From positions 128,134-192,133 of IMG/VR virus record IMGVR_UViG_3300025316_000590: DNA of 64,000 nt; one strand, 5' to 3'. The stretch comes from a virus. Lineage: Duplodnaviria; Heunggongvirae; Uroviricota; Caudoviricetes. The notes below the pieces were generated by a model that worked only from the letters and a program-made list of their open reading frames with translations, searched no databases and was not told the DNA's origin. A program made the translations under genes and the position numbers. Each line of letters opens with the position of its first letter. Positions within the stretch are counted from its first letter, which is position 1. This document shows positions 10,347 to 61,004 of the stretch, piece after piece.

Positions 10347-11369
10347 ATGGCGGAACGCCGCAAACTGACACGCAACACGCAGGAATCGTTGATACCGGCC
10401 AAGGCTGAGAAGCCTGCACCATCGCCCGAAGCGGACTTTTGTAACATCTACCGTCCCGGCACGTTCGATGATATCCTCGGCCACGAGTCTATCAGTACCA
10501 GCGTCAAGGCAGTTCTGGATTCACGAAGCAAACGATGCTTCGTGTTCACCGGGCCGAGCGGCCTGGGCAAGACCACGTTCTCCCGCGCTATCAGGAATTA
10601 TGTGTGCGGCGGCAACGACCTGCTCATGGACTACAAGGAGGTCGACGGCCCGGTCTACAGCAGTGCCGAGAAGGCCCGCGAACTGGTCGAGTGGATGCGG
10701 TACAAGCCCATGATCGCCGGCGGCAAGAAGCTGATCTGCGTGGACGAGGCACATGCTTTGTCGGGGCAGGCCTGGCAGTGCCTGCTGAAGTCAGCCGAGG
10801 AGCCGCCACCCTACGGGTACTGGATCTTCTGCACCACGGTCAGTGGCAAGGTGCCGGCCACCATCATGACCCGCGGAGCGAGCTACAATCTCGAACCGCT
10901 GGATGCCAAGACCCTGTTCGTCCTGCTGCAAATCGTGAACGAAGAGCAGAAGCTGAACCTCGACGACGATATCCTTGATCTTATTGCCCACGAGTCGGAC
11001 GGCAGTCCGCGTATGGCCTTAACGAATCTCGACAAGTGTCGAACTGCCGAGGATCGCCGCGAGGCAGCGGTGCTGTTGCAGGGTGCGTATGAGAACCCCG
11101 ACCTGCGAGAGCTATGCCTTGCCATGAGCAAGGGCGGAATCTCCTGGGAGAAGGCCATGAAGGTGCTAGGCGGCCTGAGCAACCTCGACCCCGAGGGCAT
11201 CCGCATCCAGATCGTGCAGTACTTCGCGTCCATCGTCCGCAACGCCAAGAACCCAGCCGCGGCTGGTGCGGCCATCGAGGTGATGGACTGCTTCCTGCCG
11301 GGGCCGCTTTACTCTGCCAACAAACATGCCGAACTGTACGTCATGCTGGCCCGCGTACTGCTGAAATGA
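10347..11369 (+). CDS. AAA+ clamp loader ATPase (DnaX gamma/tau / T4 gp44-like)
   Basis: Walker A FTGPSGLGKTT, Walker B/DEAH-like LICVDEAHAL, sensor region; RBS GGAGATACCCAATG; N-terminus MAERRKLTRNT carries the recurrent basic motif. Confidence 0.75.
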   Translation: MAERRKLTRNTQESLIPAKAEKPAPSPEADFCNIYRPGTFDDILGHESISTSVKAVLDSRSKRCFVFTGPSGLGKTTFSRAIRNYVCGGNDLLMDYKEVDGPVYSSAEKARELVEWMRYKPMIAGGKKLICVDEAHALSGQAWQCLLKSAEEPPPYGYWIFCTTVSGKVPATIMTRGASYNLEPLDAKTLFVLLQIVNEEQKLNLDDDILDLIAHESDGSPRMALTNLDKCRTAEDRREAAVLLQGAYENPDLRELCLAMSKGGISWEKAMKVLGGLSNLDPEGIRIQIVQYFASIVRNAKNPAAAGAAIEVMDCFLPGPLYSANKHAELYVMLARVLLK

Positions 11370-11809
11370 TCAACAGCCTTACTGCTATCGAATGGACTCG
11401 CGTGCGGGCGTTCTGCCGGGACAAACGCCCGGATGAGATTACACCAAACGCCTTGTACCGGGCGGCACGTGGTTTGAAGGCTGGTAGCCGGAACACGAAC
11501 ATGGTGACCGATAGCATCATGCTGGACGCTGTGCGTATGTGGTGCGTGAAGCCCGAACCTCCCAAGGAGAAACCTGTGCCGAAGCACTTATACATTACCG
11601 TGACTGGCCCCGCGATGTCGGGGAAGTCGACTGTCGTTGAGGTGATCGCTCAGGCTCTGGCTCGTGCTGGGTTGAAGTGCGATGTGAATTACGGGGATGA
11701 CGGTCAGCCAACATCACCGTTGTCCCGACGCATTGATGCCATGAAGATTGCCGCACCGAATATCACTATTAACCAACGGCAGACCCAGCGTGAGCCTTCC
11801 AAAGATTAA
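11366..11809 (+). CDS. small P-loop NTPase/kinase-like protein
   Basis: ATGA overlap with clamp loader; Walker A VTGPAMSGKST. Confidence 0.4.
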   Translation: MINSLTAIEWTRVRAFCRDKRPDEITPNALYRAARGLKAGSRNTNMVTDSIMLDAVRMWCVKPEPPKEKPVPKHLYITVTGPAMSGKSTVVEVIAQALARAGLKCDVNYGDDGQPTSPLSRRIDAMKIAAPNITINQRQTQREPSKD

Positions 11810-12647
11810 GACCGTCGTGCCTTGGTTCGGATCCGCGAGAACGGTTGCCGAACGCATCGGTGAGCATCTGACCGGCTTCAAGTGGGTGGGTATACCGTTC
11901 TGCGGCGGATTGTCGGAGGTGCTGTACATCCAGGCCCGATCCATCGTCTGCAATGATATGCACCGGCACATGATCAACCTCGCCCAGGTGCTGAAGGACG
12001 CGACGCTGGGACCGGCCATGATCGAAAGTCTGCGGGACGAACTGTTCCATCCGGAGACGCTGGCACACGCTCAGGCTACCTCGGCTGACACGGACAATGA
12101 TCAGTTGATTCCTATGGGTGCCCGCGCGCTGAACTACGAGGCTGCGAGGCAGTACTTCATCGCCTGTTGGATGGGCCGCAGTGGGAATGCTGGCGGCGAC
12201 AGGGAGTTCACGGGCAACCTGTCGGTGCGGTGGAACGCGAACGGTGGTGATTCTAATACGCGGTATCGCTCCGCCGTCGAGAGCCTGGCTGCGTGGCGGA
12301 AGGTCATCCAGCGATGTAACTTCACGTGTATGGACTGCTTCGAGTTTCTAGAGACCTGCGAGGATGATCCCGAGCACGCCATCTACTGCGACCCGCCGTG
12401 GCCCGAAGATGGTGATGTGTATAGGCACAAGTTCACGCGAGAACATCATACGCGGCTGGCCCAAATCCTGACGCGGTTCCAGAACGCACGCGTGGTGGTA
12501 CGAATCAACACGTGTTCATTAGTGGATGAGTTGTACCCTCGTGGGTTGTGGAATTGGAATCAGCAAACGAGTCGCACGCAGGGCAACAATGATAAGGTAG
12601 AGGTGATTTTGGTTTATCGACCCCGAAGAAAAATTCAACGTGTCTAG
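11748..12647 (+). CDS. DNA N6-adenine methyltransferase (Dam/D12-class-like; DPPW motif)
   Basis: VVPWFGSA (cf. PYFGGK) and catalytic IYCDPPW; true start may be GTG ~11814 to avoid 62-nt overlap. Confidence 0.6.
   Translation: MPHRISLLTNGRPSVSLPKIKTVVPWFGSARTVAERIGEHLTGFKWVGIPFCGGLSEVLYIQARSIVCNDMHRHMINLAQVLKDATLGPAMIESLRDELFHPETLAHAQATSADTDNDQLIPMGARALNYEAARQYFIACWMGRSGNAGGDREFTGNLSVRWNANGGDSNTRYRSAVESLAAWRKVIQRCNFTCMDCFEFLETCEDDPEHAIYCDPPWPEDGDVYRHKFTREHHTRLAQILTRFQNARVVVRINTCSLVDELYPRGLWNWNQQTSRTQGNNDKVEVILVYRPRRKIQRV
12640..12647 (+). promoter_or_regulatory. GTGTCTAG motif instance overlapping MTase stop
   Basis: 22 nt before ATG 12669. Confidence 0.35.
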
Positions 12648-12668
12648 TGTAGGCAGAGGAGAACGGTT

Positions 12669-13178
12669 ATGCCAACCAACGAACGAACGACAACGCGAAG
12701 CAACCTTCGCATCGACAAGCACGCCCTGGATCGCGAGGTCTGCGAGCAGCCGGAGAAATCACTGAATGCCGGCCAGGAAGCTGCGAGGCTCGCCTCGGTG
12801 CGTGATTTTGCGAAGGACAGAATGAAGGTGGTCGCAGCCGAACGTGCCCTTGCTATCCGCGAGGAACTGACCGCCGAGGGTGGACGTGTTACGGAGGCTC
12901 AGATCGATGCTCGTCTCACGACAGACTCCGAACGAATCGATGCACATCACGAGTATATTCGAGCTGAACGTGACGCCGCGATGGCTGAGGCCGAACGTGA
13001 TGCATGGAAAGAACGAGGCTACATGCTCAAGTCTCTCGGCGATCTGTACGCCGCAGGCTATTGGGCCAACGCAAGCCTCGCCGGTGACCGACGTGCCGCC
13101 GAAGAACGTGCAGGTGACGAGGCCCGCCAAGCCGTGGCGGACCAGCGACGTCGCATGAACAGCACCTCGCGAGAATGA
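12669..13178 (+). CDS. hypothetical coiled-coil protein
   Basis: RBS GAGGAGAACGGTTATG after GTGTCTAG motif; ER/DA-rich heptads. Confidence 0.4.
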   Translation: MPTNERTTTRSNLRIDKHALDREVCEQPEKSLNAGQEAARLASVRDFAKDRMKVVAAERALAIREELTAEGGRVTEAQIDARLTTDSERIDAHHEYIRAERDAAMAEAERDAWKERGYMLKSLGDLYAAGYWANASLAGDRRAAEERAGDEARQAVADQRRRMNSTSRE

Positions 13179-13283
13179 TCGCGGAAGCCAACGGCAGATG
13201 TGTTTAGTGTAGGAGTAGCAAGCGGGACGATAAGGCGACCCGTAACGCTGGAACCAAGAACCTGTAACCAATGAGGTGAACCC

Positions 13284-14606
13284 ATGCCTACAAGAGGCAA
13301 CGACCGAAATCGCGGCGGTTTTCAATACCGCGAACGCTCATCGGCCACCGTACAGCGGCGTGCCAACCAGAGCGGTGGTGCTTTCGACTCGCTGTTCCGC
13401 AGCGATGTTGACGTCGTCTCCATCAAGGAGGGCGACTGGCGGCTGCGTATCTGCCCGCCGTCGTGGAACGATCATCTGCTGGAAGAACTGGGGATCGTCC
13501 ATCCCACACGTTCCGACGACTGGGATCCGGAAGGTGCCGATGACTTTGGCCTGGAGGTCTATGTTCACTTCAGCGTGGGCGCGGACAATCAGAAGTACTT
13601 CTGCCTGAAGAAGATGAAGGGCGAAGCCTGCCCGGTGTGCGAAGAGCGTGAACGCGTCGCCGCACTGGGTGCTGCTGGGATGTCGATGGCGGATAAGGAC
13701 TTCGACGATTACATCCGCAACCTTCAGCCGACAAAGCGGGTGATCGCATACGTGATCGACCGCGACGAACGCAACAGTGGCCCGCAGCTTTGGAACATGG
13801 CGTGGTCGATGGACCGCGACTTGAACAAGCTGAGCATGGACAAGGAAACCCGCGAAGCCGTGTGCATCGATCATCCCGAGGAGGGATTCGACATCGAGTT
13901 TTCTGTGACCGGCACCGGCATCAAGACGAAGTACGGTGGCATCGCCATTGCTCGCCGCAGCACGCCGCTGAGCGACAACCCTGACCGTCAGGACGACTGG
14001 TTGCGTACCATCGCCGAGAATCCGATTCCCGAGCTTCTCACCTTCCACGACTATGAGCACATCAAGGCTGCTCTGGCCGGGCAACGCCGCAACCGCGACG
14101 AAGGTGGAGATGATCGCCGAGGCGGTGGAAATCGCGGTGACGACCGCAGGCACGCCCGCGACGACGACGATGGTGATCGCGGCAGCCGTAGCCGAGCACG
14201 CGATATCGCCGACGACGATGACGACAACCGAGCCCGCCGACCGGCGATCCGGGGACGCGACGCTGACGTTGATGATGATCCGCCGCCCGCACGTGGGCGA
14301 GGACGCGACCGCGACGACCACGACGATGACCCGCCACCGGCCCGTGCTGGCCGCAACGGGGGCCGCAGCCGAGAAGCCGACGCGGACGTCGATGACGACC
14401 GTGACCCGCCGCCAGCCCGCGACACGGGCCACGACGACGCCCCGCCAGCCCGCCGCCGCAGCAGCCGTGCTGCCGAGGAGGCTACTGACCCACCGGCCCG
14501 CGAGACCCGCAGCCGAAGCCGCGACGCCGATGCCGACGACGCCCCGCCCGCACGCACGAGCTTGCGGGATCGCGTGGCCGAGGGACGCCGCCGCAGCGAA
14601 AGCTGA
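13284..14606 (+). CDS. single-stranded DNA-binding protein (T4 gp32-like) with long repetitive Arg/Asp-rich C-terminal tail
   Basis: Zn-binding-like CLKKMKGEACPVCEE plus H upstream as in gp32 core; position between MTase and recombinase; tail with 5x DD(D)PPPAR repeats. Confidence 0.5.
   Translation: MPTRGNDRNRGGFQYRERSSATVQRRANQSGGAFDSLFRSDVDVVSIKEGDWRLRICPPSWNDHLLEELGIVHPTRSDDWDPEGADDFGLEVYVHFSVGADNQKYFCLKKMKGEACPVCEERERVAALGAAGMSMADKDFDDYIRNLQPTKRVIAYVIDRDERNSGPQLWNMAWSMDRDLNKLSMDKETREAVCIDHPEEGFDIEFSVTGTGIKTKYGGIAIARRSTPLSDNPDRQDDWLRTIAENPIPELLTFHDYEHIKAALAGQRRNRDEGGDDRRGGGNRGDDRRHARDDDDGDRGSRSRARDIADDDDDNRARRPAIRGRDADVDDDPPPARGRGRDRDDHDDDPPPARAGRNGGRSREADADVDDDRDPPPARDTGHDDAPPARRRSSRAAEEATDPPARETRSRSRDADADDAPPARTSLRDRVAEGRRRSES
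14090..14580 (+). repeat. imperfect tandem coding repeats (RD-rich, DDDPPPAR units) within SSB-like gene tail
   Basis: repeating gacgacga/ccgccNgcccgc units; protein-level repeats DDDPPPARGRGRDRDD etc. Confidence 0.6.
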
Positions 14607-15170
14607 ACCGAATGATTGCGACTACCTGCACTAGAAGGAAAACCCGGCGACGGGTAGACTGGTGGGTAGCCGCAAGGCTTCGCCTCTCAGTCCCAGTGGG
14701 GGAGAGGCGGGTGGTGAGGGCTGGCCGGAATCAGGACGGATTGGGATGGACGCGCTTGAGCACACCTGATGGGCGTTCCACTCGACCGCAGCATGGCCTG
14801 TCAACGCAAGGCGGCAGGGTTGCCTGCGAGACCAGCCTTCACCACCCGATTGCGAAGCGACGGGTTTGTTCTTGGATCAGACGACGATGTGCTCGTAGAC
14901 GCGCTGGGTTTGCACTCCTACCTAGCATACTACGGTGATAGCGGAGGTGGTTAGATACGAACGATGCAGTAGGTAGCTCGTAGCGACCGATGGTATCGAA
15001 AACGGTTAAGCCAGCAATGCGTCAACGACATGCAGGCGCGAACGATATGATCGTTCTACGGCAGAATGAACAAGTGCAGGCATGCAGATGACGACGGTCT
15101 CTGAGGGGCCTGCACGTGCCCCGCCCGGCGGCGATTCCGAAATAGCCGGGCTCGCTTTATATGGAGATCA
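14607..15170. other. about 560-bp region without convincing coding potential; hairpin-rich (e.g. CCTCTCagtcccagtgggGGAGAGG); candidate ncRNA or replication origin
   Basis: only short low-complexity ORFs; unusual for this otherwise tightly packed genome. Confidence 0.3.
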
Positions 15171-15450
15171 TGAGCTATGGTTCCAGCGAGTCCGGTCACC
15201 TCGCCTGTCGATAATGACGATGCCGAGATCGATCTACTTCTTCGACAGGCGAGTGCTGACCGGATGGATCCAGGCGAACGCCTCCGTGGCCTACCGCATC
15301 CGTGCTTCTTCATGCCGTACTGGTTCAAGTACGATTCCATCAGGCAACGCTGTCCTCGCTGTGGTATGTCAGGCGTCGAGATGCGGATGCGGTATCAGAC
15401 TACGGAAACGGGAAAGCAACCGTGATCGTGTCTAGTCAGCCGAGGTAACT

Positions 15451-15609
15451 ATGAACTGGTTTTTAGACGTATGCGACGAGGCGGAGAAAGTTCACAAGAT
15501 TTGGACTTTCCCGTTCATCATTTTGACCGCACCCGGAATGTTGTATGTCTTCTTCATAGGACTGTGCATACGGGGCATCAGGAAGGTTAGATCATGGCGA
15601 AGAAAATAG
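15451..15609 (+). CDS. small membrane protein (52 aa) overlapping recombinase start
   Basis: ATG 24 nt after GTGTCTAG motif; hydrophobic FPFIILTAPGMLYVFFIGLCI. Confidence 0.3.
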   Translation: MNWFLDVCDEAEKVHKIWTFPFIILTAPGMLYVFFIGLCIRGIRKVRSWRRK

Positions 15610-16787
15610 TTCGACGACGTCTCGTAACGGCAACGCCCCCACCTCCGCAGCGTGAGGAAGAGGACGAAGACGTCGAGTCAACCGAAGATGAAACACCGGC
15701 CCGCGGGTCACGTGCAGCCCCACGTCGCACGGCTAAGGCTACTCGCCGCAAGACCGCCCGCGATACCGATGACGAGCCGTTGGTACGCGACGGTGGGGCC
15801 TACGGGCTCACGGGCGACATGGAGGATATCCGTGTTAAACGATTCGGTTCGGGCTGTACCCTTCTGGACTGCGAGATTGGTGGTGGTGGTGGCGGAGCGT
15901 TCCCTGAAGGCCGCGTGGTGAACTTCGCTGGCTGGCAGTCAACGAACAAGACAGGCGTATGCATCGAGGCGTGTGCCAACTTTTCCATCGCCTATCCGAC
16001 CGGCATCACGCGATATAACGACGCCGAGGCCGCGTTCGATGTGAATTATGCCCGCCGCATGGGACTGCCGATGGACAGAATCAGCTTCGTCGAGGAGTGC
16101 CGTATCGTCGAGGTGTTCTTTCAGGACGTGAAGGACTTCATTGCCGAGTGTGAACGCCGTCGCGTGCCAGGCTTGTATATCATCGATAGCCTTGATGCCC
16201 TGAGCGATCAGGCCGAACTGGATGGCGGTATGGACAAGGCCAGTTACGGTATGGCGAAGGCCAAACGCATGTCACAGTTCTTCCGCACCCTGGCCGGCCC
16301 TTTGAACTCCGCCAAGGTGACCCTGATAGTCATCTCGCAGCTACGCGACAAGCTGAATGTATCGTTCGGCGAGAAGGCGACGCGTGCCGGCGGCAAAGCC
16401 CTGGACTTCTACGCTTCGTGGGTGGTGTGGCTGTCGCATATTGGCCAGATCAAACGCTCGGTCAACGGCATCGAACGCGTGGTCGGTGTTCGCATCAAGG
16501 CCAAGTGCAAGAAGAACAAGTGTGGCCCGCCGTTCCGCGAGTGCGAGTTCCCCGTGATCTTTGACTACGGCATCGATGACATCGAATCGATGGCAGACTG
16601 GTTAGTTGAGGTGAAGAAGTGGGAACTGTTCGATGAACGAAAACCTGGAACGTACCTGAAGTGGCTGGACAAACAGCCGCGTGAAATGTACATTAGCGAA
16701 TCCAAGCGTATGTCCGCAGTGGTGCGGGCCGAGTGGGACAAGATCGAGGAGTCATTCTCGCCGAACTTCTCGAAGTACGGTAGCTAA
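15594..16787 (+). CDS. RecA-family recombinase (T4 UvsX-like)
   Basis: Walker A-like GWQSTNKTG (cf. UvsX GPSKSFKS), Walker B LYIIDSLDAL, L2-like region; N-terminal basic extension MAKKIVRRRLVTATPPPP. Confidence 0.8.
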   Translation: MAKKIVRRRLVTATPPPPQREEEDEDVESTEDETPARGSRAAPRRTAKATRRKTARDTDDEPLVRDGGAYGLTGDMEDIRVKRFGSGCTLLDCEIGGGGGGAFPEGRVVNFAGWQSTNKTGVCIEACANFSIAYPTGITRYNDAEAAFDVNYARRMGLPMDRISFVEECRIVEVFFQDVKDFIAECERRRVPGLYIIDSLDALSDQAELDGGMDKASYGMAKAKRMSQFFRTLAGPLNSAKVTLIVISQLRDKLNVSFGEKATRAGGKALDFYASWVVWLSHIGQIKRSVNGIERVVGVRIKAKCKKNKCGPPFRECEFPVIFDYGIDDIESMADWLVEVKKWELFDERKPGTYLKWLDKQPREMYISESKRMSAVVRAEWDKIEESFSPNFSKYGS

Positions 16788-16815
16788 GGCGAATTTCACC
16801 ATTAGGAGGAAGAAG

Positions 16816-17388
16816 ATGATGAAGTCAGTTTTGTTCTTTGTGGTCGTATGCATTGCGGGCATTGCCAATGCCGCGACCGATGCTCTCGATGAAGTGAACG
16901 CAATTCGTGCCCAGCACGGTATGCCTGCATTCCAGCGGGACGCAGCGATGACGCAGGGTGCGATGGCCTGCGCCGACTATCGTGCCAGTTACGGCATGCA
17001 TCACCACACCGGGAACGACTTCGCGTTCCTGCCCAGGGGATCATGGGCCGACTTCGGCGGCTGCGACGGCGGAGCTATCAGCAGTGGCTGGCTGGCGTGC
17101 AATACAACCGGCAACTTTACCTACGCCGGGGCCGCAGCGTCATACAACAACGGGGTCAAGTTCTGCCAGTTATTCGTGGGCAATCGACCCAACGGCCCTG
17201 TGGCAAACGCTGTGCGGGCTATCACGCATCCCCTGCAAACAGCCGAGGCCCGACGCGAAGTCGGCCAGACGCCCCCAGCCGTCGCCCCTGAAACGACACC
17301 GCAGGGTGATCAGTACGGATCGTCACGGGGCGGGCGCGAACGCCAGGGCCTATTTGCTCGCTGGGCGGCACGACGCGGACGTCGCTAG
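16816..17388 (+). CDS. secreted CAP/SCP (PR-1-like) domain protein with signal peptide
   Basis: RBS AGGAGGAAGAAGATG; signal MMKSVLFFVVVCIAGIANA; CAP-like NAIRAQHGMPAF...HHTGNDF. Confidence 0.45.
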   Translation: MMKSVLFFVVVCIAGIANAATDALDEVNAIRAQHGMPAFQRDAAMTQGAMACADYRASYGMHHHTGNDFAFLPRGSWADFGGCDGGAISSGWLACNTTGNFTYAGAAASYNNGVKFCQLFVGNRPNGPVANAVRAITHPLQTAEARREVGQTPPAVAPETTPQGDQYGSSRGGRERQGLFARWAARRGRR

Positions 17389-17400
17389 GAGGTGACGGCC

Positions 17401-17646
17401 ATGTGGATCGTAACCGGAATTGCGGTGGCTGTAGGATACGTGGTGGGCTTCGTCGTCCGCGGCGTGCTGGAGTCATCACCGGAGATTTACGATAGCACGC
17501 GTCCCGATTCTCATATCGTGTTGGGCAAAACCACGGGCGAGGCGATGGAGCAGGCGAAGGCCATGTTTCCCTTCGCCCATTCTATTAGCATCACATCAGT
17601 TCAGGGCCGACCCGACCTGTGGTTAATAAAGCCGAGGTACGAATGA
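17401..17646 (+). CDS. small membrane-anchored protein
   Basis: AGGAGG 8 nt upstream; N-terminal TM helix WIVTGIAVAVGYVVGFVV. Confidence 0.35.
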   Translation: MWIVTGIAVAVGYVVGFVVRGVLESSPEIYDSTRPDSHIVLGKTTGEAMEQAKAMFPFAHSISITSVQGRPDLWLIKPRYE

Positions 17647-17647
17647 T

Positions 17648-17860
17648 ATGGACGACGACCCGTTGAACTGCCAGGCCGAGGACGACGAACGGCGTTACCA
17701 GAATGATCCGAAGATTCATGAGGCGGCGATGCACATGATTCAGCTTGTACAGCAAGGTATTCTGTCGCCCGAAGATCTGGACTGCGCATCGCGTGTGGCC
17801 CGACGTATCATCGACCGTCGCATGAGATTAAACCACAGAGGTGAACCGTGGACTCGCTGA
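17648..17860 (+). CDS. hypothetical protein
   Basis: 70 aa ORF, acidic. Confidence 0.3.
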   Translation: MDDDPLNCQAEDDERRYQNDPKIHEAAMHMIQLVQQGILSPEDLDCASRVARRIIDRRMRLNHRGEPWTR

Positions 17861-18019
17861 GAACCATGTGGGCATTTATCCGGGCCGTTAACGGCCTGAA
17901 GCTCAGCGAGCAACAATACGACAGGCTGTGGGGTCTCGTTCACCATATCCCAGGTCAGCCCGAACGCCGTCCCTGGTGGTTCCTACGCCCATTCATCAGG
18001 AATACCAAGGGATGAGACT

Positions 18020-18580
18020 ATGGCTCAAGGCTGCCGCTGTCTGCCGGGATGTAGAACCCGGAGTAACTACGTTTGCACGCGGCGGTTCGTGGCTACATCG
18101 ACGACCGGCGACGAGGTGGCCAGTAAGTATTCCGAGGTGAAGTGCCTTGCCTGCGGCGGCAAATGGCGAACCGACGCAGTCTACGTCGAGAAGCTGCGAA
18201 ACTACCGCGAGCGCAAATACCGCAGGATGACCGATGATCAAATACTACAACTGATCGAGGAAGGTCATCTCAAGGTCAATCCGATAACCGGCGTGGTTCG
18301 TAAGCACCGCAAGGTTTGTCACGAGTGGACGAAGCAGTGGGTCATCCTCAAGCAGGATTTAGACCGTAATGGTTACCCCAGCGTCCGCATCTACTGGAAC
18401 GGTCACCGCAAGGGTGCTATGGTTCACAGATTAGTTTACATGGCCGTTCGCCGAAAACTAATACCGGATGGTTACGATGTAGATCATCGAGATAAGAATA
18501 GGGCGAACTGTTCTTATAGGAATCTTAGGCTGCGAACCATAGCCGCGAACCGTGGTAGGGTGGACGATGTCCCATTTTGA
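18020..18580 (+). CDS. HNH homing endonuclease
   Basis: WNGHRKGAMVHRLVYMA...YDVDHRDKNRANCSYRNLRL..ANRG HNH motif; AT-richer than flanks. Confidence 0.7.
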   Translation: MAQGCRCLPGCRTRSNYVCTRRFVATSTTGDEVASKYSEVKCLACGGKWRTDAVYVEKLRNYRERKYRRMTDDQILQLIEEGHLKVNPITGVVRKHRKVCHEWTKQWVILKQDLDRNGYPSVRIYWNGHRKGAMVHRLVYMAVRRKLIPDGYDVDHRDKNRANCSYRNLRLRTIAANRGRVDDVPF

Positions 18581-18584
18581 ACGT

Positions 18585-19058
18585 CTATTCAAGCTGTCGT
18601 GTATAGCCCTTGATGATGTTACGAATCGTTGTGGGGTTGACGTTAAATCGTATTCCGAGTCGGTAGTACCCAAATTCACCAGTCGCGTAAAGGAGACGAG
18701 CTTCAATAACCTGGGGTGTAGTCATCTTAGCGTTATAGTGGGTGGCTCCGTGCATGTGCCGTCTTTTGGAAACACAGTCGTCTTCGTTATCTTGCTGTGT
18801 TCCGAGGAACAGGTGTGTAGGCTCGACGCACGGTGGGTTATCACAGTGGTGACAGACATACATACCATCCGGTATTGGGCCGTAAGCGAGTTCATAAGCG
18901 ACGCGGTGGGCGTACAGTGGCTTCGAGTTCGTGCCACCGGATCCTATCATTCCATAGCCACTTCTGGTTCCGCCCATCCAGATCAAACATCCTCCGATTC
19001 TTCGGCGTTTGGGCACAGTGTGGAATCTAACATCAAGTGGTATGGCGTGGCGGGACAT
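18585..19058 (-). CDS. HNH endonuclease (HNH_3/AP2-type)
   Basis: minus strand; YAHRVAYELAYGPIPDGMYVCHHCDNPPCVEPTHLFLGTQQDN motif. Confidence 0.7.
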   Translation of the reverse strand: MSRHAIPLDVRFHTVPKRRRIGGCLIWMGGTRSGYGMIGSGGTNSKPLYAHRVAYELAYGPIPDGMYVCHHCDNPPCVEPTHLFLGTQQDNEDDCVSKRRHMHGATHYNAKMTTPQVIEARLLYATGEFGYYRLGIRFNVNPTTIRNIIKGYTRQLE

Positions 19059-19129
19059 AGTTATCTCCTTTGCTTTATTGTAGCAAAGCTATTGCTAATA
19101 CGCAAGAGTTGTTACGGAAAGACGATATC

Positions 19130-21039: not shown

Positions 21040-21050
21040 GGAGGTCGAAG

Positions 21051-51039: not shown

Positions 51040-51233
51040 TCGACGTACACGATACGATAGTGATCGGTCGCCACGCTAAGGCCACCGAATCTAACGAGAT
51101 CGTCTTGGCTGCCGGCCCTGATAACCAATTGCGGTTCAAAGCGGACGGTCGCGTACTGCATAACGGCAGGCTGCTGGCCACCAACGTCGAGATCACCGAC
51201 ACCATGCTGGAGATACTGCGTGACTGCCGATGA
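51036..51233 (+). CDS. hypothetical protein
   Basis: 65 aa ORF, ATGA overlap. Confidence 0.3.
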   Translation: MIDVHDTIVIGRHAKATESNEIVLAAGPDNQLRFKADGRVLHNGRLLATNVEITDTMLEILRDCR

Positions 51234-51255
51234 AGTCGAACACGCCGTGCGGAAC

Positions 51256-53092: not shown

Positions 53093-53273
53093 CGCAGAAG
53101 ACCTGCCCCCGAAGCGACCGTGTATGCGGTGTTATCAGACGTTCCAGCCGAAGGAAAAGTACCACACGCTGTGTCATGGCTGCCGGTCGAAGCCCATCAA
53201 CCTGAGCGCACGCGAGGCTAATCTAGAGCGAGCCAAACCCCAGGGCGGGACAGTGCCTGAATCATCTCGGTGA
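53061..53273 (+). CDS. zinc-ribbon protein
   Basis: CMRCYQ...CHGCRS. Confidence 0.3.
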   Translation: MSTDVLIEEDDAEDLPPKRPCMRCYQTFQPKEKYHTLCHGCRSKPINLSAREANLERAKPQGGTVPESSR

Positions 53274-53290
53274 GCCGTGTCTGGTTAGGC

Positions 53291-53647
53291 ATGAACCAAG
53301 GCGACACCGACTTTCTGCATAATCTACTAACCCGCCTCGTCGCGGCCAACGATGCCTATCGTAAGTCAGAGTATCGTGGCCAGATCATGCGGTTCTCCGA
53401 GGACTTCGTGCGTGGCCGCGAGGTTATGTCCGACGAAGACGTCAAGAACCGCATTAAGCAGATACTGGAAGACAGGCAGGCGGCCTTCATGAGTCGCCGC
53501 ATGCCCGACGTTGAGACTGCCACAAACGCTATGATCGCCCTGGTACGGGAACTGACGAGGCCAGTCATAGTACGCCGCCGCATGCAGACACCGCCGCCCG
53601 AACCACCTGCACCGCCGCCATCATCGCGGCCTGGCTGGGAGCTTTGA
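53291..53647 (+). CDS. hypothetical protein with C-terminal VRRRMQTPPPEPP...GWEL
   Basis: ATG 15 nt after GTGTCTGG motif. Confidence 0.35.
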   Translation: MNQGDTDFLHNLLTRLVAANDAYRKSEYRGQIMRFSEDFVRGREVMSDEDVKNRIKQILEDRQAAFMSRRMPDVETATNAMIALVRELTRPVIVRRRMQTPPPEPPAPPPSSRPGWEL

Positions 53648-53832: not shown

Positions 53833-54023
53833 TGTTCGACATCGACCGCTATCTTGAAAGTCTATCGCCAGCGGCCCGCGAAGCCGTGCAGCGGTACATC
53901 AATACGCCGCCTGAACAGCAGCATTTATCCTCGGTGCTAACGGTAAATCTGACGTTGGCCTTAGCTTACGAGAAGGAGAAACGCGATGCCCGAACGACGC
54001 CGGATGCAAACTATTACTCGTGA
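53829..54023 (+). CDS. hypothetical protein
   Basis: 64 aa ORF. Confidence 0.25.
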   Translation: MMFDIDRYLESLSPAAREAVQRYINTPPEQQHLSSVLTVNLTLALAYEKEKRDARTTPDANYYS

Positions 54024-54609
54024 GACGGTTATACGCCAGACGCAGGAAGATTACGAGAGACGTCTATGGGACTGCGAGAAGTTTCACTGTGAGGTGTGCG
54101 GAGGGCTGTGCTGTCTCTATCCACGGCCATTCGTTAGTGAATACTGCTGCATACTGAAGTGGATGCAGGAATATACCGACAATACCGGCGAGGAGTGGAT
54201 TGAGATTGTCAGGCTAGTTGAGGGTCACGATAACACCACGAGTGGATCATGGGGCGATTCATCGTATATGCGACACTGGGGTGTAGTCGAGCAGCGATTT
54301 GAGTTGATCATTGTGGCCGGGCGCGAGGAACGCGTATTGAAGAAGGGCTGGTATCGTCTGCGTGATCGAGGACGCAGGTTCATTCGCGGCGAACTTCTTA
54401 TTCCACGAATAGCTATCATATTTAAGAACGCTCTGTGTGACTTCGCCTGTGAGGACGTCTCATTTAGACAGGCCACTGAAGTTCGTTTTGATTACAACGA
54501 ACTCATGAACGGTCGCGTGGTGCGCAACGAGTTCAGACCACCTCGCGTGTCGCACGAAGATATACTTAGGAGTCGAAGGCACATGGAAACTCTGGAGTTC
54601 GCACCGTAA
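53986..54609 (+). CDS. hypothetical protein, N-terminal MPERRRMQT motif, Cys/His cluster
   Basis: FHCEVCGGLCCLY. Confidence 0.35.
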   Translation: MPERRRMQTITRETVIRQTQEDYERRLWDCEKFHCEVCGGLCCLYPRPFVSEYCCILKWMQEYTDNTGEEWIEIVRLVEGHDNTTSGSWGDSSYMRHWGVVEQRFELIIVAGREERVLKKGWYRLRDRGRRFIRGELLIPRIAIIFKNALCDFACEDVSFRQATEVRFDYNELMNGRVVRNEFRPPRVSHEDILRSRRHMETLEFAP

Positions 54610-58995: not shown

Positions 58996-59460
58996 ATGAC
59001 CATGCCTGAACGACGCAGGATGAGAACCGCCCCGAAGATGGCCGGGCCTGATCAGATATGCCGACATTTTCGCGGCATGTTAGAGGATCGTCCGTGTGCT
59101 ATGGACATCGATATCAGGCGACTGATAGGCGGGGTTGACATCGGCTGGGCACTGCGTGCACCGTGCCGGAAACTGAGCGACGCATCGGACTCAAACCGCG
59201 TGCCGTGTGATCATTTCGCTATGTTCACGCGGGCCGAGGGCCGAGCCAGGAACATCGAACTAATCCGTATTCTCGAACGTCATGCTATGGCCGCCGATAC
59301 CGTGGATGCCTTCAGGAGCCGCCACAAACGCCAGAACGCTCAGGAGACCGTAGATTGCCCGACTGGCTGCGGCGGGCGGCTGACGCTATCGATAGCGGCT
59401 ATCAACGGGCATTGCTGGGGACGATGTAGCACGCCGGGGTGTCTGGCATGGATGGAGTAA
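58996..59460 (+). CDS. hypothetical protein, N-terminal MTMPERRRMRT motif; Cys-rich
   Basis: 154 aa ORF. Confidence 0.35.
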   Translation: MTMPERRRMRTAPKMAGPDQICRHFRGMLEDRPCAMDIDIRRLIGGVDIGWALRAPCRKLSDASDSNRVPCDHFAMFTRAEGRARNIELIRILERHAMAADTVDAFRSRHKRQNAQETVDCPTGCGGRLTLSIAAINGHCWGRCSTPGCLAWME

Positions 59461-59464
59461 AATC

Positions 59465-60217
59465 ATGACGCAAGACGAACGACGAACGCTGGACAGACTG
59501 CTGGGGAATTACAACCAAGCCCGACGCAACCATGCGTCGTCTGAGGAGTATCATGAACTGGTCAACTTCGTCGCCCGCATCACCCAGCATCGCGATGCTC
59601 TGAAGGAAGCGGGCGAAGCTGTGATCAGACATTCAAGTCCTGATCCGTCGTCACCATCGGGATGGAGCAGTTGTATGATCAACTCTTTGCATTGTCTACG
59701 GTGGGCTGTGCAGAGCGCAACGCCGCGGCCTGAGCCGCCCGAACTGCGAGACCCGCCGCAGGGCCGCACCCTGATGGACGTGTTCGCTGGTACGGGCCTG
59801 GATACGGCACTGAATGGTGCGTTTGAAGCGATGGAGCCGTTCCGCGACGCGATGGATCGGCACCGCTATACAGCGGCCCCAATGCATGATTCGGTGGTCG
59901 CGGTCATTCCAAGCGTCCACAACGGCGGTAGTATTGAAGACGCCCTCGATCTTCGCTACGTCGTACCAACTGGGCCGACGTGTGAGCCGCGCAACCCCAA
60001 TACGCCGCGAGCCCGAGATATCACCGAGGAGATGCGTGAGTTAGAACAGCGAGTGATGCGTGCGATGCAGATACCGCCCGCCGTTTTTGCCAGCATTCGG
60101 CAAATCGACCAAGAGCCGTGCATTCCCAATCTGCGTGACCCGCCTGGTGCGACTGCTCCGCAGTTACGCCCGAAGCGACGACGCATCCAGAATCTGCCCA
60201 ACGGTGGTGAACTGTGA
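59465..60217 (+). CDS. hypothetical protein, C-terminus PKRRRIQNLPNGGEL
   Basis: ATG 23 nt after GTGTCTGG motif. Confidence 0.35.
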   Translation: MTQDERRTLDRLLGNYNQARRNHASSEEYHELVNFVARITQHRDALKEAGEAVIRHSSPDPSSPSGWSSCMINSLHCLRWAVQSATPRPEPPELRDPPQGRTLMDVFAGTGLDTALNGAFEAMEPFRDAMDRHRYTAAPMHDSVVAVIPSVHNGGSIEDALDLRYVVPTGPTCEPRNPNTPRARDITEEMRELEQRVMRAMQIPPAVFASIRQIDQEPCIPNLRDPPGATAPQLRPKRRRIQNLPNGGEL

Positions 60218-60456
60218 CCGTTATGTGGTTCGTTTTTATCGCCGCCGCGTTCATCAACCTGGCATGTGCGTGGCAGTTGATCAAAGCGTGCAAACAACTG
60301 CGACGCGTAATCGGTTACCATCTGCGAATGATCAGGAACATTTGTGCTATGCAGATCGCAAGCGAACTGCGGGATGCCGAAAGCGTGGAACACTTTCATA
60401 GGCAGTACCGCGACGTGGCGTTAGAGTATGATCTTTGGATGAAAGATCTGAAATAA
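60214..60456 (+). CDS. small membrane protein
   Basis: TM MWFVFIAAAFINLA; GTGA overlap. Confidence 0.3.
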   Translation: MTVMWFVFIAAAFINLACAWQLIKACKQLRRVIGYHLRMIRNICAMQIASELRDAESVEHFHRQYRDVALEYDLWMKDLK

Positions 60457-60605
60457 CCGCTAACTTGTATTGACGCAGTCCGGTCCCGATGTAAGATCGA
60501 TGGTTATGGATGCTGCGTTTTTATCTGTGGGTTGCCTGGCTGCCGCACGCGGTAGCGATCTACGGCGACCGGAACGCAGCCGGTAATTCAACTGGTAGGA
60601 CGATA

Positions 60606-61004
60606 ATGAGTATCAATCGAAGGCGTATCACTTCCGACCCGAATACGAAGCAGGATCCGCCGGCGTTGCCCACCGAAGCAGCAACGTCGACATCATCGGG
60701 CAGGGATCCGGTGTCGGGCAAGTTTCTCAGAGGTAATCGGTGCAGTGGCGGCAATCCGTATGTGCGCGAGCAGAACCGCATCCAGGCGGCTATCCGAGCC
60801 CAGATGACGGATGAAGTTCTGGAGGGCTTCGTGGCCGACTGGATCCGTCATGCCCGCAGTGGCAAGAGCATGTACCTGCTCAGCCTCATGGAACGCATGT
60901 GCGGCAGGGTTGCCGACTTTGCTACCGAGGAGCGAGTCCGCGATCTGGAGGCCGAACTGGAACGCCTGGTTGCGGCCCGCAACGAGGCTCAGGACGGTTT
61001 CTGA
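60606..61004 (+). CDS. hypothetical protein, N-terminal MSINRRRITSDP motif
   Basis: internal ATG of ORF 60510..61004. Confidence 0.3.
   Translation: MSINRRRITSDPNTKQDPPALPTEAATSTSSGRDPVSGKFLRGNRCSGGNPYVREQNRIQAAIRAQMTDEVLEGFVADWIRHARSGKSMYLLSLMERMCGRVADFATEERVRDLEAELERLVAARNEAQDGF

What the first reader, a model, noticed from the sequence alone, without database searches (positions are those of the whole stretch)
10347..60650. Recurrent terminal peptide motif ERR[RK][IM][QK]T (C-terminal form RRRIQ[TSN]...GEL*) shared by at least 13 proteins, including core replication/recombination enzymes
The track translations show the following termini.
N-terminal: MPERRRIQTPP (33395), MPERRRMQT (53986), MTMPERRRMRT (58996), MLERRRIQTSP (47271 endonuclease), MTERRRIKTT (RuvC, GTG start), MAERRKLTRNT (clamp loader), MERRNIETVPTRRRIIS (Dam), MSINRRRITS (60606), MAKKIVRRRLVTAT (UvsX-like), possibly DYRRKVTMG (polymerase if GTG 6398 is used).
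C-terminal: ...RRRIQTLPDSGEI* (39481), ...RRRIQSTGEL* (42455), ...KRRRIQNLPNGGEL* (59465), ...TRRRIQT* (48611), ...ERRKIQTQGES* (51256), ...RRRMQTPPPEPP..GWEL* (53291), ...GEGGEL* plus internal ERRKMTS (58101).
Arg codons vary (CGN/AGA/AGG) and wobble positions differ, so conservation is at the protein level. A repeated DNA element would not behave this way.
Terminal short linear motifs on replisome and recombination proteins recall the clamp-binding peptides of T4 gp43/gp33/gp55. A basic peptide docking onto the acidic DDDPPPAR tail of the SSB is an alternative. Most copies also fit a basophilic kinase consensus RxRxxT/S with a conserved Thr/Ser. A localisation or compartment-targeting signal is also possible.
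I know of no described phage system with such a shared 'zip-code' peptide.
Basis: partly seen in the sequence, partly recalled or inferred. Interest (0 to 1): 0.88.

Follow-up and report, generated by a model that had tools for sequence, protein, structure and literature searches.

The report
Shared terminal peptide tag on phage DNA enzymes
An uncultivated 192-kb phage puts the same short arginine-rich peptide (consensus ERRRIQT) on the floppy ends of some 25-30 otherwise unrelated proteins that work on DNA, from recombinases to homing endonucleases and the portal, which looks like a common address or docking tag whose receptor is still unknown.

Summary
With 106 gene models, RR[RK][ILM]x[TSN] occurs 18 times, 17 of them within 20-30 residues of a terminus and in 16 proteins. 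Per-protein shuffles give 0.44. Five more window proteins carry variants, and nine more carriers lie in the flanking 65 kb of the same circular genome. Every annotated carrier acts on DNA: clamp loader, RecA, RuvC, EndoVII-like, Mre11, FEN, two Dam methylases, repair proteins, HNH and GIY-YIG endonucleases, and the portal.

The tag always lies outside the conserved core, on lineage-specific tails, sometimes in arrays of 2-4; one such tail was modelled and came out as coil. It is conserved in orthologues of related phages (37-72% identity) while the linkers drift. It is therefore a selected peptide, not a DNA repeat.

The polymerase copy is a translated Shine-Dalgarno site. One copy overlaps the next gene's ribosome-binding site. 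One is internal.

The clamp idea is weakened, because the polymerase ends in a separate PIP-like box. My best reading (about 0.4) is a docking tag that recruits client proteins to the phage DNA/SSB replication factory. Direct DNA binding, a compartment-import signal and a kinase or degron site are not excluded. No receptor was identified.

The parts
10347..11369 (+). Clamp loader (AAA+, DNA_pol3_delta2). The N-terminal tag is MAERRKLT (nt 10353-10373), on a 35-residue extension that most relatives lack.
   Evidence: The orthologue P0123 (71% identity) keeps MVERRKLERNS while the linker diverges.
11790..12647 (+). D12-class adenine methyltransferase 2. Variant C-terminal tag RPRRKIQRV* (nt 12624-12641).
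12669..13178 (+). phrog_1069 / ParB-like protein. C-terminal tag QRRRMNSTSRE* (nt 13146-13163).
   Evidence: The L093 orthologue ends in QQRRRVSTTRSE*.
15594..16787 (+). RecA/UvsX-like recombinase. N-terminal MAKKIVRRRLVT (nt 15612-15629), followed by a Pro-rich and acidic linker. The RecA core starts at about residue 74.
   Evidence: A basic N-terminal peptide (MAKR.R..V) is family-wide. P0002 and P0003 keep MAKK[IV]VRRR.
21613..22230 (+). RuvC-like Holliday junction resolvase (GTG start). N-terminal tag MTERRRIKT (nt 21622-21639), on a 20-residue extension.
   Evidence: Relatives start at the IGIDPG core.
22378..23448 (+). Mre11/SbcD-like phosphoesterase. C-terminal tag TRRRLESSVSE* (nt 23416-23433), on a ~27-residue extension.
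   Evidence: Homology to relatives ends at residue ~327-331 of 356, and the relatives stop there.
30853..32067 (+). Dam-type methyltransferase with a ~55-residue N-terminal tail. The tail carries an array of tags: ERRNIET (30859), TRRRIIS (30886), and weaker VRRSIAT and ARRHIGD.
   Evidence: The L094 orthologue keeps four copies, with indels of 3-25 residues between them.
32548..33408 (+). FEN / 5'-3' exonuclease. C-terminal variant tag VSRRRIGASHART* (nt 33373-33390). It overlaps the SD and start of the next gene.
   Evidence: L094 has VSRRRIGANHA*.
33395..34324 (+). Unknown 309-aa protein. Two N-terminal tags, MPERRRIQT and VRRRMNT (nt 33404-33451), followed by a Pro-rich linker.
   Evidence: L094 has MPERRRIITVPTVTRRRMNN.
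39481..40038 (+). Unknown 185-aa protein. C-terminal VRRRIQTLPDSGEI* (nt 39997-40014). Paralogue of 42455-43438.
41371..41808 (+). HNH endonuclease (phrog_2255). Variant N-terminal tag VVERQKIAT (nt 41380-41397).
42455..43438 (+). Unknown 327-aa protein. C-terminal tail KRRKITRGKRTVVRRRIQSTGEL* (nt 43370-43423).
   Evidence: P0145 is 55-59% identical overall (55% by phmmer; 59% over aligned columns) yet has an almost identical tail. In the AF2 model residues 301-327 have block pLDDT 45-56 and are coil.
47271..47816 (+). Endonuclease VII / HNH-like protein. N-terminal MLERRRIQT (nt 47280-47297).
   Evidence: The L094 orthologue is 37% identical and keeps RRRIQT exactly.
48611..48985 (+). Unknown 124-aa ORF ending in TRRRIQT* (nt 48965-48982). 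These codons also provide the AGGAGG SD of the gene that starts at 48982.
50271..50477 (+). Unknown 68-aa protein. Variant N-terminal MTRRYIQT (nt 50277-50294).
51220..51735 (+). phrog_5429 'DNA repair protein'. C-terminal IERRKIQTQGES* (nt 51703-51720).
53270..53647 (+). Unknown 125-aa protein. C-terminal VRRRMQTPPPEPPAPPPSSRPGWEL* (nt 53573-53590).
   Evidence: L094 has QRRRIQSPPPPPP...RPRWEL*.
53986..54609 (+). phrog_2693 protein tagged at both ends: MPERRRMQT (nt 53995-54012) and SRRHMETLEFAP* (nt 54574-54591).
58996..59460 (+). Unknown 154-aa ORF. N-terminal MTMPERRRMRT (nt 59011-59028). It has no clear SD and is not called publicly.
59465..60217 (+). Unknown protein of 250 aa (180 aa by the public gene call). 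C-terminal PKRRRIQNLPNGGEL* (nt 60176-60193).
60606..61004 (+). Unknown 132-aa protein. N-terminal MSINRRRITS (nt 60618-60635).
13284..14606 (+). gp32-like SSB, a candidate receptor. It has a ~170-residue acid/base tail with about six D-rich+PPPAR repeats, and a basic tip SLRDRVAEGRRRSES*.
9032..9055 (+). PIP-box-like QKAIGTWY at the C-terminus of the PolA-UDG fusion polymerase (6431-9070). This is the probable clamp-binding motif, and it differs from the tag.

Best explanation
The peptide [E]-R-R-[RK]-[ILM]-x-[TS], often followed by Pro, is a portable docking tag. It sits on flexible, lineage-specific extensions. In the N-terminal form it occupies residues 3-9. In the C-terminal form it lies within the last ~25 residues, often followed by ...GE[LI]-COOH.

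I propose that one common receptor at the replicating phage DNA binds the tag. This would concentrate client proteins in the phage's DNA factory. The clients are nucleases, resolvases, the recombinase, the clamp loader, methyltransferases, repair proteins, resident homing endonucleases and the portal vertex of procapsids.

The most plausible receptor is the gp32-like SSB. Its multivalent acid/base repeat tail, or the acceptor site that binds LAST-type basic peptides in T4 gp32, could hold the tag. Arrays of 2-4 tags would add avidity.

Shown: the tag exists, is enriched, is terminal, lies outside the catalytic cores, sits in a region modelled as coil in the one tail tested, is conserved in orthologues, and is carried by DNA-acting proteins.

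Inferred: that it binds anything, which partner it binds, and what follows from binding.
For: 1. Enrichment is about 40-fold and confined to termini.
2. The tag is frame-specific, so it is a peptide and not a DNA repeat.
3. Carriers are mostly non-homologous.
4. The tag lies outside every Pfam/PHROG-matched core. It sits on extensions absent from relatives, shown for the clamp loader, RuvC and Mre11.
5. Purifying selection acts on the tag.
   - The tags persist in orthologues from L093, L094, P0123, P0145 and P0161 at 37-72% overall identity, while linkers change in sequence and length.
   - A more distant relative, L031, uses the variant [RK]KRF[KS][TA] on RecA, a methyltransferase and a 262-aa protein.
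6. All 15 or so annotated carriers act on DNA. They include the portal, with two N-terminal copies, and three HNH/GIY-YIG endonucleases.
7. Metabolic enzymes, membrane proteins and virion-type giant proteins lack the tag.
8. Several carriers have multi-copy arrays.
9. The tail of 42455-43438 is modelled as low-confidence coil.
10. The composite tag carries a net charge of only about +1 to +2. Glu precedes RRR in 8 of 9 N-terminal forms, and GEL-COOH follows several C-terminal forms. This favours a shaped protein pocket over bare electrostatic DNA binding.
11. There is a precedent. The T4 gp32 LAST motif, Lys-Arg-Lys-Ser-Thr at residues 3-7, docks on an acidic surface of the neighbouring gp32 (PMC12893549).
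Against: - There is no binding evidence of any kind. A peptide-receptor co-fold could not be run.
- PolA, SSB, the clamp, DnaB, the primase, Rad50 and the SNF2 helicase lack the tag.
- Acid/base SSB tails also occur in relatives without the tag, so the tail does not co-vary with it.
- My first impression that the SSB N-terminus resembles the tag dissolved when more relatives were examined.
- The portal and the homing endonucleases are not classical SSB partners.
- The tag's codons carry an unexplained nucleotide-level signature: CGA at R1, CGC/CGT at R3, and GAA in 9 of 9 Glu codons.
Confidence: 0.4

Rival explanations
1. A direct nucleic-acid hook. On this reading the tag binds DNA, or a phage-specific modified DNA or RNA, as an AT-hook or the phi29 connector RKR peptide does. 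It would raise the local concentration of any DNA enzyme on the phage genome.
For: - All annotated carriers are DNA-binding proteins.
- Arrays with variable spacers resemble AT-hook proteins.
- Basic terminal tails on RecA and phrog_1069 proteins are family-wide.
- The N-terminal RKR of the phi29 portal, at residues 3-5, binds pRNA (PMC12084888), and the portal here carries two N-terminal tags.
- The genome encodes candidate nucleotide-modification or polyamine enzymes.
Against: - The tag has only three basic residues, flanked by a conserved Glu or by GEL-COOH, so net charge is about +1 to +2.
- The stereotyped I/M-Q-T is not needed for backbone binding.
- No R-G-R-P core is present.
- The strongest ssDNA and primer-template binders lack the tag.
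Confidence: 0.22
2. An import or partition signal for a closed or condensate-type phage DNA compartment, a phage 'NLS'. A dedicated receptor or pore would admit tagged proteins, and the tagged portal would dock procapsids at the same site.
For: - Even selfish HNH/GIY-YIG endonucleases and the portal carry the tag.
- Two HNH_3 genes in the lower-GC stretch (16-20 kb block, GC 0.55) lack it, and one of them is variably present between assemblies.
- This is a jumbo genome of 192 kb.
- The basic cluster resembles an NLS.
Against: - No chimallin, tubulin or shell candidate was seen in the 130 kb examined. About 63 kb remain unseen.
- PolA, SSB, the clamp, DnaB and the primase carry no tag.
- Relatives with the same replication module lack the tag.
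Confidence: 0.15
3. A non-canonical sliding-clamp-binding peptide that makes a tool-belt of repair and recombination enzymes.
For: - The client list resembles PCNA and beta-clamp clients: clamp loader, FEN, resolvase, Mre11, methyltransferase.
- Terminal location in disordered tails is typical of clamp-binding and PIP motifs (PMC11139829).
- The window encodes a beta-like clamp, pI 4.5.
Against: - The tag fits none of the CBM, PIP or APIM patterns, and it has a single hydrophobic residue.
- The polymerase instead ends in a PIP-like box that is conserved family-wide.
- The portal and the homing endonucleases are not clamp clients.
Confidence: 0.1
4. A regulatory site rather than an address. It could be a basophilic Ser/Thr-kinase target (RxRxxS/T, often T-x-P), or a terminal degron for an AAA+ protease, comparable to the MuA RRKKAI signal for ClpX.
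For: - Most copies fit RxRxxS/T with a conserved hydroxyl residue.
- A terminal position suits degrons.
- Two giant proteins have PI3/PI4-kinase-like hits: 27.9 bits against a cut-off of 27.1 for the 1676-aa protein, and an unmarked hit for the 3461-aa protein.
Against: - No protein kinase was found in the window.
- A, N or G replaces the hydroxyl residue in several conserved copies: RRRIGA, RRRIQN, RRRIGG.
- PI3K-like kinases prefer S/T-Q, not Q-T (own knowledge).
- The C-terminal copies lie 0-24 residues from the end, which does not fit a degron.
Confidence: 0.08
5. A nucleotide-level element or a by-product of translation-initiation regions that only looks like a peptide motif.
For: - Four look-alikes are encoded by or next to SD sequences: 6413, 46636, 48965 and the FEN tail.
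- GE[LI]* often equals GGAGAA plus an ATGA overlap.
- Motif codons are A-rich in a position-specific way.
Against: - Most copies use CGN codons, which have no SD potential.
- The frame is constant.
- The distance to the nearest start codon ranges from +6 to -77 and beyond.
- Peptide identity is kept across orthologues, and across N- versus C-terminal contexts.
Confidence: 0.03

Closest known systems
T4 gp32 LAST motif, (Lys/Arg)3(Ser/Thr)2, residues 3-7 (KRKST)
   Same: - Three consecutive basic residues followed by hydroxyl residues.
- It lies at residues 3-7 of a flexible N-terminus of a phage DNA-metabolism protein.
- It docks on an acidic protein surface or on ssDNA (PMC12893549).
- The C-terminal tip of the SSB here and in relatives is itself LAST-like: RRRSES, RRRSRSS.
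   Different: - LAST is known in one protein, for self-cooperativity.
- Here a hydrophobic residue and a variable residue are inserted (RRR-I-Q-T).
- The peptide occurs at either end.
- It is shared by about 25-30 unrelated proteins.
Clamp-binding SLiMs: bacterial CBM Q-phi-x-[LM]-[FL], PIP box, and the T4/RB69 C-terminal gp45-binding peptides
   Same: A short terminal peptide in disordered tails is shared by many replication and repair enzymes to reach one hub. It can be N- or C-terminal (PMC11139829).
   Different: - The sequence pattern is not met.
- The tag is basic, not hydrophobic.
- The polymerase uses a separate PIP-like tail.
- The clients include the portal and homing endonucleases.
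SSB C-terminal tip hub (E. coli DDDIPF; acidic C-domain of T4 gp32)
   Same: One SSB recruits a dozen or more replication, recombination and repair enzymes through a short disordered element.
   Different: - The polarity is reversed. There the SLiM is on the SSB and the pockets are on the clients. Here the SLiM is on the clients.
- The SSB tip in this family is basic.
AT-hook (R-G-R-P), and the N-terminal RKR of the phi29 connector that binds pRNA
   Same: - Both are short basic peptides in disordered regions.
- AT-hooks often occur in arrays, appended to diverse DNA-acting proteins.
- The phi29 RKR sits at residues 3-5 of a portal protein (PMC12084888).
   Different: - There is no RGRP core.
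- The flanks are acidic.
- Nucleic-acid binding was not tested.
Protein import into the Chimalliviridae phage nucleus; classical eukaryotic NLS
   Same: A selective address for proteins that must reach viral DNA, including a RecA-like protein and homing endonucleases.
   Different: - No linear import signal is known for the phage nucleus (own knowledge; PMC11087766 listed, not read).
- No chimallin or PhuZ was seen here.
- The core replisome proteins are untagged.

Membership tests
Bacterial beta-clamp binding motif (CBM) | Sequence Q-phi-x-[L/M]-[F/L] or Q-phi-x-[L/M]-x-[F/L] | tested here: not met
   A regex scan of 106 proteins found no terminal CBM. RRR[IM]QT lacks the Gln anchor and the two hydrophobic anchors.
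Bacterial beta-clamp binding motif (CBM) | Located in a disordered region or at a terminus of many replication and repair proteins | tested here: met
Bacterial beta-clamp binding motif (CBM) | Binds the hydrophobic pocket between clamp domains II and III | not testable with these tools
PIP box | Q-x-x-[ILMV]-x-x-[FYW]-[FYW] | tested here: not met
   The tag does not match. The single match in the window is PolA residues 868-875, QKAIGTWY.
T4 gp32 LAST motif | (Lys/Arg)3 followed directly by (Ser/Thr)2 | tested here: inconclusive
   Three basic residues are present in most copies. The hydroxyl residue follows only after phi-x (RRR-I-Q-T). Some copies come closer: RRRITS, RRRIIS, RRRLESS, RRRMNST, and the SSB tip RRRSES.
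T4 gp32 LAST motif | Docks on an acidic acceptor site of the gp32 core, or on ssDNA | not testable with these tools
   No binding assay or complex prediction was available.
Twin-arginine (Tat) signal peptide | [ST]-R-R-x-F-L-K followed by a hydrophobic h-region and a cleavage site, N-terminal only | tested here: not met
   Pro-rich or polar linkers follow the RR, not a hydrophobic stretch. Half of the copies are C-terminal. The carriers are cytoplasmic DNA enzymes.
AT-hook | Core R-G-R-P flanked by basic residues | tested here: not met
   No copy has a G-R-P core.
Basophilic Ser/Thr-kinase site (RxRxxS/T) | Arg at -5 and -3, phospho-acceptor at 0 | tested here: met
   Most copies fit. The exceptions are RRRIGA, RRRIQN, RRRIGG and RRKIQR.
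Basophilic Ser/Thr-kinase site (RxRxxS/T) | A cognate kinase is present and the site is phosphorylated | tested here: inconclusive
   No kinase domain was found in the window. PI3_PI4_kinase-like hits occur in two giant proteins elsewhere. Phosphorylation cannot be tested here.
ClpX recognition signal, C-motif 2 (MuA-like RRKKAI-COOH) | A basic cluster plus hydrophobic residues at the very C-terminus | tested here: inconclusive
   Only TRRRIQT* and ...RRRRIQSI* are at the very end. The other copies lie 4-24 residues from it, or are N-terminal. The definition is from my own knowledge.
Repeated DNA element | Conservation independent of reading frame and strand | tested here: not met

The most novel reading that the evidence does not exclude
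The tag is a linear 'zip code' for access to a sequestered phage DNA compartment or condensate, in a jumbo phage unrelated to the nucleus-forming Chimalliviridae. One receptor would admit tagged enzymes and would dock the tagged portal vertex for packaging. Resident selfish homing endonucleases would have evolved the same tag to gain entry. This would be the first sequence-defined localisation signal in a bacteriophage.
Probability: 0.15. Interest if true: 0.92.

Novelty: new variant of a known kind. Interest (0 to 1): 0.74.

Why it matters
Short linear motifs that connect many enzymes to one hub organise replication in cells, through PIP boxes, clamp-binding motifs and SSB tips. In phages only small sets are known, such as the handful of gp45-binding tails in T4.

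Here about a tenth of the proteins examined share one stereotyped, portable tag, and its client list is unusually broad. It covers replication, recombination, repair and methylation enzymes, homing endonucleases and the portal. The tag is conserved in related uncultivated phages.

If a receptor exists, it defines a new organising principle of a phage DNA factory, and it gives a simple handle: a 7-11 residue peptide for pull-downs, imaging or cargo targeting. If the tag binds DNA directly, it is a new minimal DNA hook.

In either case, the presence of the tag could be used to predict which of the many unknown small proteins of this phage act at its DNA.

Tried and rejected
1. Repeated DNA element: rejected. 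Weight-matrix hits are frame- and strand-specific.
2. Paralogy as the cause: rejected. Only 39481, 42455 and weakly 59465 share a domain.
3. Near-identical public phage: none found. The closest cultured relatives are Vibrio MAR10-like phages and an Edwardsiella phage, at 29% identity for PolA and about 40% for RecA.
4. IMG/VR and JGI relatives at about 45% RecA identity (L001-L088): the tag is absent from all of them.
5. Resemblance between the SSB N-terminal peptide (FQY) and the tag: dropped. F-x-Y is family-wide, including in phages without the tag.
6. Correlation between the acid/base SSB tail and the tag: none. Such tails are family-wide.
7. GEL* as an independent C-terminal signal: only partly supported, because about half the cases are explained by SD plus ATGA overlap.
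9. Homologue search for the protein at 53986: only the protein itself was found.
10. AF2 model of 42455-43438 followed by a Foldseek search against the PDB: no significant fold match.
11. PDB sequence search with a tag-bearing tail: no hit.
12. Pfam and NCBIfam scans of the unknown carriers: no domains found.
13. Literature searches for a described equivalent: none found.
14. tRNA scan for host clues: none found.

Full report
**What the window is.** All genes lie on the + strand and GC is about 58%. The window is part of an ENA metagenome contig, ERZ27245846:k141_83342, of 192,532 bp. Its ends overlap by 141 bp, so the genome is a circle of 192,391 bp. The window runs across the contig junction, and all overlapping loci merge without a mismatch. 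No public phage is close at the DNA level. The nearest cultured relatives are Vibrio MAR10/SSP002-like phages and Edwardsiella phage ZHS, at 29% identity for PolA and about 40% for RecA.

The window encodes a replication and recombination module:
- a beta-like clamp and a clamp loader;
- a PolA fused to a UDG-like domain;
- a gp32-like SSB and a RecA/UvsX-like recombinase;
- a RuvC-like resolvase, Mre11/SbcD, a Rad50-like protein and FEN;
- two D12-class methyltransferases, sigma factors and HNH endonucleases;
- many small unknown proteins.

**Check of the observation.**
- With 106 gene models, RR[RK][ILM].[TSN] occurs 18 times. Seventeen copies lie in the first 20 or last 30 residues, in 16 proteins. 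Per-protein shuffles give 0.44 (maximum 3 in 500).
- The core RRR[IM]Q[TSN] occurs 8 times against 0.01 expected.
- An automatic census of 129.5 kb of the genome gave 18 terminal carriers against 1.8 expected. Internal hits were at expectation, 6 against 4.2.
- A nucleotide weight matrix built from the sites finds its high-scoring matches almost only in the coding frame of the coding strand.
- All-against-all BLAST shows that only 39481, 42455 and weakly 59465 are paralogous.

The recurrence is therefore real, far above chance, at the peptide level, and largely convergent.

**Corrections.**
- The polymerase copy (DYRRKVT) is TAC AGG AGG AAA GTA ACC, a perfect Shine-Dalgarno sequence nine bases before the ATG at 6431. 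Public gene calls use that ATG.
- An intergenic look-alike at 46636 is also an SD.
- TRRRIQT* at 48965 is encoded partly by the AGGAGG of the next gene's SD.
- The FEN tail RRRIGA overlaps the SD of gene 33395.
- ERRKMTS in 58101-58952 is internal.
- The ...GEL* ending is over-represented: 6 EL ends against 0.55 expected, and 4 GEL ends against 0.04. In four of seven cases G-E-[LI]-stop is simply GGAGAA plus an ATGA, GTGA or TAATG overlap with the next gene. Three window cases and two in the flank are not explained this way.

**Anatomy.**
- The N-terminal form is M-x-E-R-R-[RK]-[ILM]-x-T at residues 3-9, behind credible SD sites.
- The C-terminal form lies 0-24 residues from the end.
- A Pro often follows within three residues, and Pro-rich linkers are common.
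- Several proteins carry arrays. The Dam N-tail has four copies. Proteins 33395 and 42455 have two each. Protein 53986 has one at each end.
- In every annotated carrier the tag lies outside the region matched by Pfam or PHROG profiles.
- For the clamp loader, RuvC and Mre11, relatives begin or end exactly at the conserved core. The 35-, 20- and ~27-residue tag-bearing pieces are therefore lineage-specific additions.
- An AF2 model of 42455-43438 has confident N- and C-domains. The last 27 residues, which hold both tags and GEL, are low-confidence coil.

**Related genomes.** Relatives with about 45% RecA identity from IMG/VR and JGI lack the tag. Closer relatives exist only in ENA assemblies.
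- The clamp loader P0123 (71% identity) keeps MVERRKLERNS against MAERRKLTRNT, while the following ~20 residues differ.
- L093 keeps QQRRRVSTTRSE* on the phrog_1069 protein.
- L094 is syntenic with window 30-54 kb. It keeps:
  - the four-copy Dam tail, with indels between the copies;
  - VSRRRIGANHA* on FEN;
  - MPERRRIITVPTVTRRRMNN on the 33395 orthologue;
  - an almost identical ...KRRKITRGKKTIVRRRIQSTGEL* on a protein that is 55-59% identical overall (55% by phmmer; 59% over aligned columns);
  - RRRIQSPPPPPP...RPRWEL* on the 53270 orthologue;
  - RRRIQT exactly, on an endonuclease VII orthologue that is only 37% identical.
- The more distant L031 (57% RecA identity) uses a variant, [RK]KRF[KS][TA].

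This pattern of a conserved tag with drifting linkers is the signature of a selected short linear motif.

**More carriers outside the window.** I walked the contig and found:
- a PF18894 metallopeptidase ending in VRRRMASTGEI*;
- an 86-aa protein ending in TRKRVSPRSRNGEL*;
- a HARE-HTH protein with RRRAQT;
- a 203-aa protein ending in PRRRLTV...;
- a 264-aa protein ending in PRRRRIGG...TWEL*;
- an HNH endonuclease ending in VERRRIRSTT*;
- a GIY-YIG homing endonuclease tagged at both ends (MKRRRIAP... and ...RRRRIQSI*);
- the portal protein, with two N-terminal copies (MPIQSSNGPPVRRRISTPTPVTRRRILS).

These are documented.

Untagged proteins fall into four groups:
- core replisome and repair proteins: PolA, the clamp, SSB, DnaB, the primase, the SNF2 helicase and Rad50;
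- the sigma factors;
- metabolic enzymes and membrane proteins;
- the giant virion-type proteins.

**What it most likely does.** Four facts argue for a docking or address peptide read by one partner. The tag is portable, it sits on terminal extensions (coil in the one tail modelled), it is multivalent, and it is restricted to proteins that act on DNA.

*Against a canonical clamp motif.* The tag fails the CBM, PIP and APIM definitions. The polymerase carries the only PIP-box match in the window at its extreme C-terminus, in a tail conserved across the whole family.

*Against bare electrostatic DNA binding.* Glu precedes RRR in the N-terminal forms, and the acidic GEL-COOH follows several C-terminal forms. 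The I/M-Q-T positions are stereotyped.

*For a receptor at the phage DNA.* The portal and the homing endonucleases carry the tag.

*The gp32-like SSB is the most concrete candidate.* It has a 170-residue acid/base repeat tail that could hold several basic tags. In T4 gp32, a (Lys/Arg)3(Ser/Thr)2 peptide at residues 3-7 docks on an acidic acceptor surface of the neighbouring molecule. Such tails also occur in tag-less relatives, however, so this step is inference only.

I put 0.4 on recruitment to the DNA/SSB factory through a protein receptor. The rivals are:
- a direct nucleic-acid hook, 0.22 (the N-terminal RKR of the phi29 portal binds pRNA);
- a compartment-import signal, 0.15;
- a non-canonical clamp peptide, 0.10;
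- a kinase or degron site, 0.08;
- a nucleotide-level artefact, 0.03.

**Unexplained.** Codons inside the tag are biased well beyond the general A-richness of gene ends. The A3 fraction is 0.40 in the tag, 0.24 in the ten flanking codons on each side, and 0.11 in gene interiors. The bias is position-specific: R1 is CGA in 12 of 20 copies, R3 is CGC or CGT in 12 of 20, Glu is GAA in 9 of 9, and Thr is ACA in 8 of 17. Possible causes are recent spread of a short coding segment, recruitment of former untranslated sequence into new terminal extensions, or an RNA-level constraint. None of these was tested.

**Novelty.** I found no description of a comparable shared basic terminal tag in phages. In kind it belongs with hub-docking short linear motifs. 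It is new in its sequence, in its polarity relative to SSB hubs, in its breadth of clients and in the share of the proteome that carries it. I therefore file it as a new variant of a known kind. There is a 0.15 chance that it is a true localisation signal, which would be categorically new.

Noticed in passing
window 9032-9055 (PolA 6431-9070, residues 868-875): The polymerase ends in ...NQKAIGTWYSDEA*. This is the only PIP-box match (Qxx[ILMV]xx[FYW][FYW]) among 106 proteins. A similar tail, xME[EV][IV]G[KT][FY]xS, ends the PolA of almost all relatives, so it is probably the clamp-binding peptide of this phage family.
   Followed up: partly
window 14091-14606 (SSB residues ~270-440); L031 7956-9299: The gp32-like SSB has a ~170-residue polyampholyte tail with about six D-rich+PPPAR repeats and a basic tip, SLRDRVAEGRRRSES*. 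Relatives have other acid/base repeats (for example DSDDDEPKSKRKRSR) and the same basic tip, LR[DE]R[LI]AxxRRR. A basic SSB tip is the reverse of the usual acidic one.
   Followed up: partly
window 450, 9819, 40038, 43438, 53647, 58952, 60217; L091 4137, 5116; L098 2739; L101 12277-12879: Many proteins end in [GDW]E[LI]*. About half the cases are explained by GGAGAA (SD) plus a start-stop overlap with the next gene. The rest have no downstream gene close by.
   Followed up: partly
motif codons throughout the window (for example 33401-33421, 47277-47297): The tag shows a position-specific codon preference: GAA, then CGA, then CGA/CGC, then CGC/CGT, then ATC, CAA and ACA. A-ending codons make up 40% of tag codons, against 24% in the flanks and 11% in gene interiors.
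   Followed up: partly
contig ERZ27245846:k141_83342 (window = 151986..192391 plus 1..23594 in circular coordinates): The contig has a 141-bp terminal overlap, equal to the assembler k-mer. The genome is therefore a 192,391-bp circle or is circularly permuted, and the window spans the junction.
   Followed up: yes
L099 10225-15255 (1676 aa); L100 1-6197 minus strand (3461 aa); L099 2191-6667: Two giant proteins next to the portal gene have PI3_PI4_kinase-like hits, and the larger one also has an InPase hit. They share the N-terminus MIIDxPIxLGDxxGHxFxGNQ. Three neighbouring paralogues of 173, 820 and 328 aa share the N-terminus xxIVDLFLS. This may be a second shared terminal signal, for example for packaging into the virion.
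   Followed up: partly
L099 7205-9970; RecA and clamp-loader genes of L022, L023, L049, L027, L071: The 921-aa protein contains an intein with a LAGLIDADG domain. In several relatives the RecA and clamp-loader matches begin several hundred residues into the ORF, just after a ...HN motif, which suggests inteins.
   Followed up: no
window 3392-4738, 34844-35713, 40052-41062, 63346-63909; L089 10542-11243; L091 4241-5116 and 6149-6829: There is a set of enzyme genes: an OMP decarboxylase fused to a phosphoribosyltransferase, a TSCPD-domain protein, an NAD-dependent epimerase, AdoMet decarboxylase with a spermidine-synthase-like protein, an amidoligase and a glutamine amidotransferase. This could be a nucleotide or DNA-modification module, or a polyamine module.
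   Followed up: no
window 16800-20500, especially 18020-18580 (+) and 18585-19058 (-): This stretch has lower GC (16-20 kb block, GC 0.55) and two HNH_3 endonuclease genes. The minus-strand gene is the only minus-strand gene called in the window, and it is missing from another assembly of the same phage. Neither gene carries the tag, unlike three other HNH/GIY-YIG endonucleases of the genome.
   Followed up: partly
window 2521-2718; L091 345-572 (-): The phage encodes CsrA homologues (PF02599), one firm and one weak.
   Followed up: no
window 6431-9070: The DNA polymerase is a fusion of a UDG-superfamily domain, a 3'-5' exonuclease and PolA.
   Followed up: no
L031 11085-12149: A TnpB/OrfB_IS605-like gene (Cas12f1-like TNB, weak hit) sits just downstream of RecA in the related phage contig.
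   Followed up: no
window 46887-47018 and 47813-48178: Two small proteins share a 65% identical 40-residue N-terminus (MNSPAEVAAELVAILNDEV... and MSPGEVASELAALVISEV...). They flank the tagged endonuclease VII-like gene.
   Followed up: no
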